552 nt of DNA, from assembly GCF_003334385.1 (NCBI RefSeq), contig NZ_QOWN01000166.1. One strand, given 5' to 3'. This document shows, in pieces, positions 492-552 of the stretch; the stretch's first letter is position 1, and each line of letters starts with the position of its first letter. The position numbers and the translations under genes were made by a program. The notes under the pieces are model-generated. The model saw only the letters and a program-made list of their open reading frames with translations. It searched no databases and was not told where the DNA came from. The stretch is from Escherichia coli. Its GTDB lineage: Bacteria > Pseudomonadota > Gammaproteobacteria > Enterobacterales > Enterobacteriaceae.

Positions 492-496
492 AATGA

Positions 497-503
497 CCTC
501 CTC
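497..503 (-). promoter_or_regulatory. Shine-Dalgarno / ribosome-binding site for the transposase gene
   Basis: Minus-strand sequence reads GAGGAGG-tcatt-ATG: a near-consensus SD with 5-nt spacing to the start codon at 491..489. Confidence 0.65.
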
Positions 504-552
504 TGGAATATCCCACCAATGCTATAGTGAGTATATAAAGGTCATACCATCT

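What the first reader, a model, noticed from the sequence alone, without database searches (positions are those of the whole stretch)
493..545. 6-bp inverted repeat bracketing the leader and overlapping the SD
Plus 493..498 (atgacc) and 540..545 (ggtcat) are perfect reverse complements separated by 41 nt. In the minus-strand transcript the 3' arm overlaps the last two G residues of the SD and the bases directly before the AUG. If the pairing forms it could occlude ribosome binding and so limit transposase expression, or it could be a stem within a structured leader RNA. A 6-bp repeat in about 60 nt is weak evidence and may be coincidental.
Basis: seen in the sequence. Interest (0 to 1): 0.2.

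Follow-up and report, generated by a model that had tools for sequence, protein, structure and literature searches.

The report
IS end repeat that masks ribosome site
The small inverted repeat is real: its outer arm is the left sub-terminal repeat of the insertion sequence ISEc45, its inner arm overlaps the transposase ribosome-binding site, and relatives show the pairing is conserved, most likely to keep stray transcripts from making transposase.

Summary
The repeat is at the stated coordinates. It is 7 bp perfect (493-499 / 539-545) and reaches 9 bp with two G.U pairs. Alone it is weak evidence: a repeat of 6 bp or more overlapping SD..ATG arises in 7% of shuffles, and 7 bp or more in 2%.

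The window is the left end plus 163 codons of ISEc45, an IS1111-type member of the IS110 (RNA-guided, DEDD) family, inserted in an IS66-family transposase gene. The window ends exactly at the IS tip, so the leader is only 59 nt.

The outer arm is the left sub-terminal inverted repeat (TATGACCTTT). On the excised circle it would also be the -10 of the junction promoter (TTGACA-17 nt-TGnTATGAC). The inner arm is a third copy of that repeat fused to the SD.

In 17 of 20 close relatives the MFE fold closes with this stem. Across 16 repeat sequence types, the SD window pairs better with its own repeat than with foreign ones in 14 (0 of 5000 permutations).

Best reading: RNA entering from outside buries the SD, about 6 kcal/mol harder to open. 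RNA started at the junction promoter lacks the outer arm. This is a new variant of IS10/IS50-type protection and ISPpu9-type 5'-UTR occlusion. No transcription start or translation data exist.

The parts
551..552 (-). AG dinucleotide shared by the target and both IS junctions (recombination core). Under the Hall-lab convention these are the first two bases of the IS.
   Evidence: Empty ISEc23 site ...CATAAAG|TTTTTC... against occupied ...CATAAAG[ATGG...AAGAG]TTTTTC. An AG core is also reported for ISPpu9 (PMC12288879). A 7-bp left extension is described in PMC11187229.
492..550 (-). The whole non-coding left end (59 nt) of ISEc45, from the IS tip to the base before the AUG.
   Evidence: Ends mapped against an uninterrupted IS66-type target. 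The element is L002 3003-4448, 1446 bp. Window coordinate = 3553 minus L002 coordinate.
537..546 (-). Left sub-terminal inverted repeat (sTIR-L), TATGACCTTT. It contains the finding's outer arm.
   Evidence: Its perfect 10-nt reverse complement AAAGGTCATA lies 5 nt from the right end (L002 4435-4444). The same repeat was found in about 56 relatives.
541..549 (-). Predicted TGn-extended -10 (TGGTATGAC) of the circle-junction promoter. It overlaps the outer arm.
   Evidence: The reconstructed junction reads TTGACA-17 nt-TATGAC with TG at -15/-14. The -35/17-18 nt/-10 geometry recurs in most of the 44 relatives with both ends. This is inferred and no circle was sequenced here.
537..545 (-). 5' arm of the RNA stem, AUGACCUUU.
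   Evidence: MFE and centroid folds. 7 bp are perfect.
493..501 (-). 3' arm of the RNA stem, GGAGGUCAU. It covers 5 of 6 SD bases and the spacer, and is effectively a third copy of the sub-terminal repeat.
   Evidence: GGAGGTCAT is kept in relatives whose left-end interior has diverged.
497..502 (-). Shine-Dalgarno AGGAGG.
   Evidence: Read directly from the sequence. It lies 5 nt before the AUG.
489..491 (-). Transposase start codon AUG.
   Evidence: RefSeq CDS start in L001-L004. The translation matches NF033542.
508..536 (-). Inner tier of the hairpin: AUAU (536-533) with AUAU (511-508), and CUCACUA (531-525) with UGGUGGG (518-512). It remains in the junction-promoter transcript.
   Evidence: An inner hairpin with a different sequence is present in most clade members.
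532..536 (-). Predicted transcription start zone of the junction promoter, 5-9 nt after the -10. It lies 3' of the outer arm.
   Evidence: Inferred from promoter geometry only. There are no TSS data.
530..535 (-). TATACT box, conserved just 3' of ATGACC in most close relatives. Its role is unknown.
   Evidence: Alignment A2. No usable -35 lies at 16-18 nt in either the linear or the circular form.
3..491 (-). First 163 codons of the ISEc45 DEDD (IS110-family) transposase.
   Evidence: NCBIfam NF033542, 'IS110 family RNA-guided transposase', E 2.4e-32. 100% identical DNA is annotated as ISEc45 family transposase in many E. coli genomes.

Best explanation
The two arms belong to a translational insulator built into the left end of ISEc45. 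The outer arm is the left sub-terminal inverted repeat. The inner arm is a copy of the right repeat fused to the Shine-Dalgarno sequence. In any RNA that enters the element from flanking DNA both arms are present. They close a two-tier hairpin whose 9-bp outer stem buries GGAGG and the spacer, so ribosomes load poorly. When the element excises as a circle, the right end brings a TTGACA -35 to 17 nt from TGnTATGAC, which is the outer arm itself. Transcription then starts about 7 nt further on, the mRNA lacks the outer arm, and the SD is free. Efficient transposase synthesis would therefore be tied to the excised state. Shown here: the sequence anatomy, the element ends, conservation and covariation of the pairing, and the predicted energetics. 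Inferred: that the RNA stem forms in cells, that it lowers translation, and where transcription starts.
For: Anatomy: ends were mapped with an empty site. sTIR-L and sTIR-R are a perfect 10-nt pair. The window ends at the IS tip. Conservation in the clade: 17 of 20 distinct left ends fold with the tip/sTIR::SD stem. RNAalifold recovers its core. 89.8% of cells pair against at most 58% slid, and column 10-64 is GC 15 / GU 5 / broken 0. Covariation between clades: among 16 sTIR types the SD window prefers its own sTIR in 14, by a mean of -4.7 kcal/mol (Wilcoxon 0.0004, 0 of 5000 permutations). Examples are L084 at 11/11, L041/L048 at 12-13 bp and L074 at 8/8, plus ISSso6. Ensemble SD pairing is 0.67 against 0.45 in shuffles, higher in 53 of 56 loci and in all 7 clusters. 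RNA-level signature: changes in the 3' arm are mostly wobble-preserving transitions or are rescued by a 1-nt bulge. The alpha-proteobacterial and L046/L064 clades use a separate anti-SD arm that is not the repeat. Promoter logic: TTGAC(A) lies next to sTIR-R in most of 44 loci, with a 17-18 nt spacer to a -10 over the left tip. No resident promoter or terminator was found in the integrated left end. The literature places the -35 in the RE and the -10 in the LE, and treats Pjunc as the sole tnp promoter in ISEc11 and IS621 circles (PMC12288879, PMC11187229). Energetics: opening -15..+5 costs 10-11 kcal/mol in read-through RNAs and 4.7-5.0 in RNAs starting at IS positions 13-19. Across 20 left ends the values are 10.4 against 6.4, and 7.9 with a shuffled 5' extension. 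Precedent: structure in the ISPpu9 5'-UTR covers the RBS and weakening it raises translation (PMC8450116).
Against: For ISEc45 alone, every single-sequence statistic is compatible with chance. Four of the nine pairs join sTIR 'CCUU' to SD 'AGG/GG'. Each of those is conserved for its own reason, and no pair in the clade shows a change on both sides. The transcription start is only predicted, and TATGAC lacks the conserved final T of a -10. In 18 of 44 relatives, including the whole alpha clade, the anti-SD arm lies inside the predicted junction transcript, so promoter selectivity cannot be the general rule. Three clade members (L021, L217, L220) lack the stem. ISEc45 always sits antisense to the IS66 transposase gene it interrupts, so sense read-through from that gene's promoter is not expected. 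Three older IS1111 papers could not be read, so a prior description cannot be excluded.
Confidence: 0.55

Rival explanations
1. Constitutive attenuator. The stem, or an equivalent SD-masking fold, forms in every tnp mRNA whatever its promoter, and simply keeps transposase translation low, as in ISPpu9 and IS200.
For: In 18 of 44 relatives the anti-SD arm lies inside the predicted junction transcript, and in 23 the predicted start cuts the arm. In ISPpu9 the 5'-UTR occlusion acts on the native transcript (PMC8450116). The ISEc45 start site is unknown.
Against: In the ISEc45 and Rhizobium-type clades the -10 hexamer overlaps the arm, so a start upstream of it would need another promoter, and none is detected. 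Predicted junction transcripts open about 6 kcal/mol more easily.
Confidence: 0.2
2. By-product or coincidence. The outer arm is kept because it is the recombination repeat, and the inner arm because it is the SD plus spacer. A pyrimidine-rich repeat next to a purine-rich SD will look complementary without selection for pairing.
For: Single-sequence statistics are not significant. There is no double-sided covariation within the clade. Shuffled upstream sequence already pairs with the SD at P = 0.45.
Against: Own repeats beat foreign repeats in 14 of 16 types (0 of 5000 permutations). Perfect matches of 11-13 bp extend well beyond the SD into the spacer and start codon. The UCAU spacer is conserved while the left-end interior diverges. 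Some clades have evolved separate anti-SD arms.
Confidence: 0.15
3. DNA-level third repeat copy. The SD-proximal GGTCAT is a binding site for the transposase or its guide-RNA complex, acting in autoregulation or as an alternative end, and does not act as an RNA arm.
For: The inner arm is a copy of sTIR-R and covaries with both repeats. How IS1111 ends are recognised is not understood (PMC11187229).
Against: The substitutions that are tolerated are those giving G.U in RNA, which would be mismatches in a DNA site. Some clades mask the SD with a non-repeat arm. The flanks of the inner copy do not resemble the right end beyond the repeat. An ISEc11 mini-IS moves with only 50 bp of left end (PMC11187229), although the ISEc11 layout was not checked here.
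Confidence: 0.06
4. An mRNA 5' stability or processing hairpin that protects the tnp transcript, or marks a processing site of the long tnp-plus-guide RNA, without controlling ribosome access.
For: In several clades the predicted start falls at the first bases of the arm, which would give a 5'-terminal stem. Long junction transcripts must be processed to release the downstream guide RNA (PMC11187229, PMC12288879).
Against: The conserved partner is specifically the SD and start codon and not any other downstream segment. In ISEc45 the arm is predicted to be absent from the junction mRNA.
Confidence: 0.04

Closest known systems
IS10 / IS50 protection from external transcription (an inverted repeat near the IS end sequesters the transposase translation start in read-through RNA)
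   Same: One arm lies at the outer end of the element and the other covers the ribosome site. The element's own promoter is predicted to start between the arms, so only foreign transcripts carry both. Sequestration of translation initiation signals in IS10 and IS50 is cited in bioRxiv 10.1101/2025.01.24.634351. The detailed mechanism is recalled from my own knowledge of the Kleckner and Reznikoff work and was not read here.
   Different: The transposase is a DEDD, RNA-guided enzyme and not a DDE enzyme. Here the 'own' promoter exists only on the excised circle. The outer arm is at once the recombination repeat and the -10 hexamer. No experimental data exist.
ISPpu9 (IS110 family) tnp 5'-UTR structure (PMC8450116)
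   Same: It belongs to the same transposase superfamily. A fold in the 5'-UTR includes the RBS, and mutations weakening it raise translation.
   Different: ISPpu9 has a 244-nt UTR, a native promoter, and an antisense RNA (Asr9) that opens the fold. It belongs to the IS110 group, which lacks sub-terminal repeats. ISEc45 has a 59-nt left end, no detected native or antisense promoter, and the partner of its SD is the sub-terminal repeat.
Pjunc junction promoters of circle-forming IS (ISEc11, IS621, ISPpu10; IS3, IS21 and IS30 families)
   Same: The -35 lies in the right end and the -10 in the left end, and they are joined on the circle (PMC12288879, PMC11187229). The geometry was recovered here in most of 44 relatives.
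   Different: Known descriptions concern transcription only. Here the -10 and left repeat also appear to double as an anti-SD sequence in RNAs that do not come from Pjunc.
IS200 transposase mRNA stem-loop sequestering the SD (Ellis et al. 2015, cited in PMC8450116)
   Same: A cis RNA structure occludes the SD of a transposase mRNA.
   Different: It is an unrelated family (HUH transposase) and a constitutive structure, and the terminal repeat plays no part.

Membership tests
IS110 family, IS1111 group (insertion sequence) | DEDD-type transposase (PF01548 plus PF02371; NCBIfam NF033542) | tested here: met
   The 163-aa fragment hits NF033542 at E 2.4e-32, 112 bits. That is below the 140-bit full-length cut-off because only residues 1-151 of the 343-position model are present. 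The full-length copy is annotated as ISEc45 family transposase. Homologues carry PF01548 and PF02371.
IS110 family, IS1111 group (insertion sequence) | Sub-terminal inverted repeats of 7-17 bp | tested here: met
   TATGACCTTT / AAAGGTCATA is 10 bp, lying 5 nt (left) and 4-5 nt (right) from the ends. The definition is from PMC11208160 and PMC11187229.
IS110 family, IS1111 group (insertion sequence) | Short left end and long right non-coding end, where the bridge/seekRNA is encoded | tested here: met
   The left end is 59 nt and the right end about 253 nt. The RNA itself was not demonstrated. Rfam 15 gives no hit, and there are only weak guide-like matches, ATAAGAGTTT and GTTCTTT.
IS110 family, IS1111 group (insertion sequence) | Site-specific insertion without target duplication | tested here: met
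   The insertion point in IS66-type transposase genes is the same in independent genomes and in relatives. Only the AG core is shared.
IS110 family, IS1111 group (insertion sequence) | Circular intermediate with a junction promoter | tested here: inconclusive
   The promoter is predicted from the reconstructed junction (TTGACA-17-TGnTATGAC) and the geometry is conserved in relatives. No circle junction sequence was observed.
IS10/IS50-type protection from outside transcription | Inverted repeat with one arm near the IS end and the other over the translation start signals | tested here: met
   The arms are at 545-537 and 501-493, the SD at 502-497 and the IS tip at 550.
IS10/IS50-type protection from outside transcription | The element's own transcript starts between the arms and so lacks the outer arm | tested here: inconclusive
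   This is predicted only from -10 placement, with a start near window 534. There are no TSS data. It does not hold in 18 of 44 relatives.
IS10/IS50-type protection from outside transcription | Read-through transcripts are translated poorly because of the pairing | not testable with these tools
   Only thermodynamic predictions are available: 10-11 against about 5 kcal/mol opening energy, with the clade control.
ISPpu9-type 5'-UTR / antisense control | Long structured 5'-UTR from a native promoter, plus an antisense sRNA complementary to it | tested here: not met
   The left end is 59 nt. No sigma-70-like promoter was found on either strand in L002 2900-3120.
Any curated RNA family (Rfam 15) | Covariance-model match | tested here: not met
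   There are no matches up to E = 1 over L002 2900-4600, which contains the whole window and the right end.

The most novel reading that the evidence does not exclude
Across the IS1111 group, one short sequence does three jobs: recombination-site repeat, -10 of the circle-only promoter, and anti-Shine-Dalgarno arm. Together these would form a topological switch that licenses transposase translation only after excision. Integrated copies would stay silent whatever is transcribed through them. A more radical variant is that the third repeat copy at the SD is bound by the transposase/guide-RNA complex for autoregulation.
Probability: 0.3. Interest if true: 0.55.

Novelty: new variant of a known kind. 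Interest (0 to 1): 0.4.

Why it matters
IS110/IS1111 elements are the source of bridge/seekRNA recombinases now being developed for genome editing, yet how their transposase expression is restrained is known for only one member, ISPpu9. A conserved pairing between the left sub-terminal repeat and the ribosome site would explain how integrated copies with no promoter of their own stay silent under read-through. It would also explain why expression is coupled to the circle. It gives a reason for part of the sequence constraint on the sub-terminal repeats. For practical work, it warns that constructs keeping the native left end upstream of the recombinase gene may be poorly translated when driven from a foreign upstream promoter. 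The mechanism class is already known, so this refines the picture and does not change it.

Tried and rejected
1. Bridge RNA in the leader. My first idea was that the region upstream of the ATG would encode the bridge RNA, as in IS621. I rejected it because the left end is only 59 nt and the layout is IS1111-type.

2. Rfam scan of the whole element found nothing.

3. First clustering for the cognate/non-cognate test merged all loci into one cluster. A second gave 7 coarse clusters and a representative-dependent result. Both were replaced by per-locus ensemble analysis and an sTIR-type test.

It yielded only ISEc45 and one close variant. My first filter on it was also too strict.

5. The ISEc11 reference locus CP053751.1 is not in the collections. 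Prosseda 2006, Partridge & Hall 2003 and Tetu & Holmes 2008 are not held. ISEc11's own left end and any earlier mention of this pairing could therefore not be checked. ISSso6 was examined instead.

6. TATACT as an alternative -10. No usable -35 lies at 16-18 nt in either the linear or the circular form, so it is left unexplained.

7. Intrinsic terminator. None is present, and there is no U-tract after the stem.

8. The 27-nt, 70% inverted repeat 3-29 / 519-545 (I1) is a low-identity, long-range match inside the coding sequence and was treated as chance.

Full report
OBSERVATION. The window's minus strand reads 5'-AGATGGTATGACCTTTATATACTCACTATAGCATTGGTGGGATATTCCAGAGGAGGTCATTATG-3' from 552 to 489. 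The reported arms are present at the stated coordinates. The repeat tool extends them to 7 perfect bp, 493-499 / 539-545. With two U.G pairs the RNA stem is 9 bp, AUGACCUUU with GGAGGUCAU. The MFE and centroid folds of the leader contain this stem as the outer tier of a two-tier hairpin (-20.9 kcal/mol, z = -1.97).

The repeat is weak evidence on its own. A perfect inverted repeat of 6 bp or more occurs in 39% of dinucleotide shuffles of the left end. One whose 3' arm overlaps SD..ATG occurs in 7.3% at 6 bp or more and in 2.1% at 7 bp or more.

WHAT THE REGION IS. The ORF starting at 491 matches NCBIfam NF033542, 'IS110 family RNA-guided transposase'. The window is 100% identical to ISEc45 copies in many E. 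coli genomes: 945 records and 891 of 5426 genomes.

In four independent chromosomes the element interrupts an IS66-family (ISEc23-type) transposase gene. Comparison with an uninterrupted ISEc23 fixes the ends: the empty site is ...CATAAAG|TTTTTC... and the occupied site is ...CATAAAG[ATGGTATGACC...GGTCATAAGAG]TTTTTC.... The element is 1446 bp, an AG dinucleotide is shared at both junctions, and window 550 is the first IS base. Under the convention of PMC11187229, which assigns a 7-bp left extension, window 552 is the first base.

The leader therefore cannot be extended. The whole left end up to the AUG is 59 nt, while about 253 nt of non-coding DNA follow the gene. This is the IS1111-group layout of short LE, long RE with the bridge/seekRNA, and long sub-terminal repeats (PMC11208160, PMC11187229). 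Rfam has no model that matches anywhere in the element.

IDENTITY OF THE ARMS. The right end reads ...TATTTGACAAAGGTCATAAGAG. AAAGGTCATA is the perfect reverse complement of the left-end TATGACCTTT. The finding's outer arm is therefore the left sub-terminal inverted repeat (sTIR-L). The SD-proximal GGTCAT is a third, internal copy in the orientation of the right repeat.

Directly upstream of the right repeat lies a perfect -35 hexamer, TTGACA, pointing out of the element. If the ends are abutted as in the circular intermediates documented for this family (PMC11187229, PMC12288879), the junction reads TTGACA-AAGGTCATAAGAGATGG-TATGAC. That is a 17-nt spacer with TG at -15/-14, and the -10 hexamer overlaps the outer arm.

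The integrated left end has no sigma-70-like promoter on either strand and no terminator.

COMPARATIVE EVIDENCE. I collected 80 loci from one genome per species (33-99% protein identity). I added 14 loci for intermediate homologues, a close variant from metagenomes and from a second copy in L001, and ISSso6 from a Shigella plasmid. Start codons and sub-terminal repeats were located in about 56 loci.

(a) Within the ISEc45 clade there are 20 distinct left ends that share the tip AGATGNTATGACC.
- 17 fold with the tip/sTIR paired to the SD and start region. The exceptions are L021, L217 and L220.
- RNAalifold recovers the core of the stem.
- For the ISEc45 stem, 89.8% of cells form standard pairs, against at most 58% when the partner is slid.
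- Because the 5' arm is the invariant repeat, no pair changes on both sides.
- At the informative column 10-64 all five changes are C to U, giving GC 15, G.U 5 and broken 0.
- Other variants keep pairing through A to G wobble (L028, L220, L209) or a one-base bulge (L012, L218).
- GGAGGTCAT persists where the interior of the left end has diverged completely, for example in L214.

(b) Between clades the repeat sequence differs and the SD-proximal sequence follows it.

| Locus | sTIR-L segment | SD-proximal segment | Pairing |
|---|---|---|---|
| L084 | GAAGTGACCTC | GAGGTCACTTC | 11/11, about 100 nt apart |
| L074 | TAATGACC | GGTCATTA | 8/8 |
| L076 | TAGTGACC | GGTCACTA | 8/8 |
| L041 / L048 | (A/C)GACCTGCCTC | GAGGCAGGTC(A/G) | 12-13 bp |
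| L024 | GATGACCGTTTTC | GAGAACGGATCAT | about 11 of 13 by eye |
| ISSso6 | UUUCCGUG | CACGGAGG | 8 bp, two of them G.U |

In a formal test over 16 repeat sequence types, the SD window (-18..+4) pairs better with its own 16-nt repeat segment than with foreign ones in 14 types. The mean advantage is -4.7 kcal/mol (Wilcoxon p = 0.0004), none of 5000 permutations of the type assignment reaches the observed value, and for 9 types no foreign type does as well.

The ensemble probability that SD and start are paired to the upstream left end is 0.67, against 0.45 for shuffles. It is higher in 53 of 56 loci and in all seven clusters.

(c) In the alpha-proteobacterial clade and in L046/L064 the SD is masked by a dedicated arm 20-30 nt downstream of the repeat, at -22 to -32 kcal/mol. 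An example is GGTTCGCCCT...CTGGC with GCCAGGAGGGCGAACC.

Points (a) and (c) favour selection on RNA pairing over a third DNA binding site.

PROMOTER GEOMETRY AND ENERGETICS. TTGAC(A) next to the right repeat is conserved in most of the 44 loci with both ends, down to 33% identity. In the reconstructed junctions a -10-like hexamer lies 17-18 nt away over the core and left tip. It is GATAAT, GACAAT, CATAAT or TATGAT in distant clades, TGnTATGAC in the ISEc45 and Rhizobium-type clades, and a weak TATGTC in the alpha clade.

For ISEc45 the predicted start is near window 534, which is 3' of the outer arm. Transcripts entering from 2, 30, 60 or 100 nt outside the tip all keep the stem in their MFE and need 10-11 kcal/mol to open -15..+5. 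Transcripts starting at IS positions 13-19 need 4.7-5.0.

Across the 20 clade members the means are 10.4 for read-through and 6.4 for junction transcripts, with read-through higher in 20 of 20. A shuffled 5' extension of the same composition gives 7.9, and the natural extension exceeds the shuffle mean in 17 of 20 (p = 1.3e-4, sequences not independent).

LIMITS.
- ISEc45 on its own is never significant.
- Part of the stem joins two elements that are each conserved for other reasons.
- The start site is inferred, and TATGAC lacks the canonical final T.
- In 18 of 44 relatives the anti-SD arm lies inside the predicted junction transcript. Promoter selectivity is therefore at best a property of some clades, while SD masking looks general.
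- ISEc45 always lies antisense to the IS66 gene it interrupts, which already limits sense read-through.

MECHANISM AND COMPARISON. The best-supported reading is SD occlusion by the left sub-terminal repeat in RNAs that traverse the IS tip, relieved in circle-derived mRNA. This works like the IS10/IS50 protection against outside transcription, whose sequestration of initiation signals is cited in bioRxiv 10.1101/2025.01.24.634351; the details are from my own knowledge. It also resembles the RBS-masking 5'-UTR of ISPpu9, where weakening the fold raises translation (PMC8450116).

It differs from both. The native promoter exists only on the circle, and the outer arm is simultaneously the recombination repeat and the -10. 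It is not an ISPpu9-type system, because it has a 59-nt left end and no native or antisense promoter.

Full-text searches found no description of this pairing for IS1111-type elements, and ISEc45 appears only in mobile-element inventories. Three older key papers could not be read.

VERDICT. This is a new variant of a known regulatory principle, of moderate interest, and it awaits TSS mapping and reporter mutagenesis.

Noticed in passing
L002 2980-3002 and 4449-4470; also L003, L004, L207, L209, L210, L214, L216-L218, L220, L001 5095-5120: ISEc45 and most relatives at 67-87% identity sit at the same position inside IS66-family transposase genes (target ...GAACATAAAG|TTTTTC or GAAGAACAYGT-AG), always antisense to the IS66 gene. 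This is a clade of RNA-guided IS that specifically targets another IS family.
   Followed up: partly
L002 4430-4435 and the equivalent position in most of 44 loci: An outward-facing TTGAC(A) -35 hexamer immediately upstream of the right sub-terminal repeat is conserved down to 33% transposase identity. It lies 17-18 nt from a -10-like hexamer over the left tip in reconstructed circle junctions.
   Followed up: yes
window 535-530 (- strand), alignment A2 columns 19-24: A TATACT box just 3' of ATGACC is conserved in most ISEc45-clade left ends. It has no usable -35 in either the linear or the circular form, and its role is unknown. It might be donor recognition or part of the transcription start context.
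   Followed up: partly
L002 4326-4335 and 4368-4374 (right non-coding region, outside the window): ATAAGAGTTT is a 10-nt copy of the junction between the right end and the target. GTTCTTT is the reverse complement of the left target flank AAAGAAC. Both look like bridge/seekRNA guide segments, but the matches are short and were not tested for structure.
   Followed up: partly
L029-L039, L045, L047 (about -77..-54 from the ATG); L046, L064: These clades mask the SD with a dedicated 13-17-nt anti-SD arm downstream of the sub-terminal repeat (-22 to -32 kcal/mol), and the repeat itself is not used. The arm lies inside the predicted junction transcript.
   Followed up: partly
L209 333-1517, L210 309-1493: The gene caller started the transposase ORF at the ATG inside the sub-terminal repeat (ATGACC...), giving a 394-aa product. 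The real start, with GGAGG upstream, is about 55 nt downstream.
   Followed up: yes
L001 3001-4195 and 5118-6312: Two ISEc45 copies lie about 2 kb apart in E. coli FORC_069. The first has lost its right end to an IS3-family fragment. The second is variant B, with tip AGATGATATGACC and GGAGGTCATCATG, both arms intact and U.G strengthened to C-G next to the stem.
   Followed up: partly
L221 470-600 and 1975-2000 (ISSso6, Shigella dysenteriae plasmid): ISSso6 has a 14-bp sub-terminal repeat (TATGACTTTCCGTG), TTGACA overlapping the right repeat, and two SD-masking helices: UUUCCGUG with CACGGAGG, and GCUGGCC with GGCCAGC. It would be a convenient second system for experiments.
   Followed up: partly
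window 3-29 and 519-545: A 27-nt inverted repeat at 70% identity spans almost the whole window. It is low identity, one arm lies inside the coding sequence, and it was judged to be chance.
   Followed up: no
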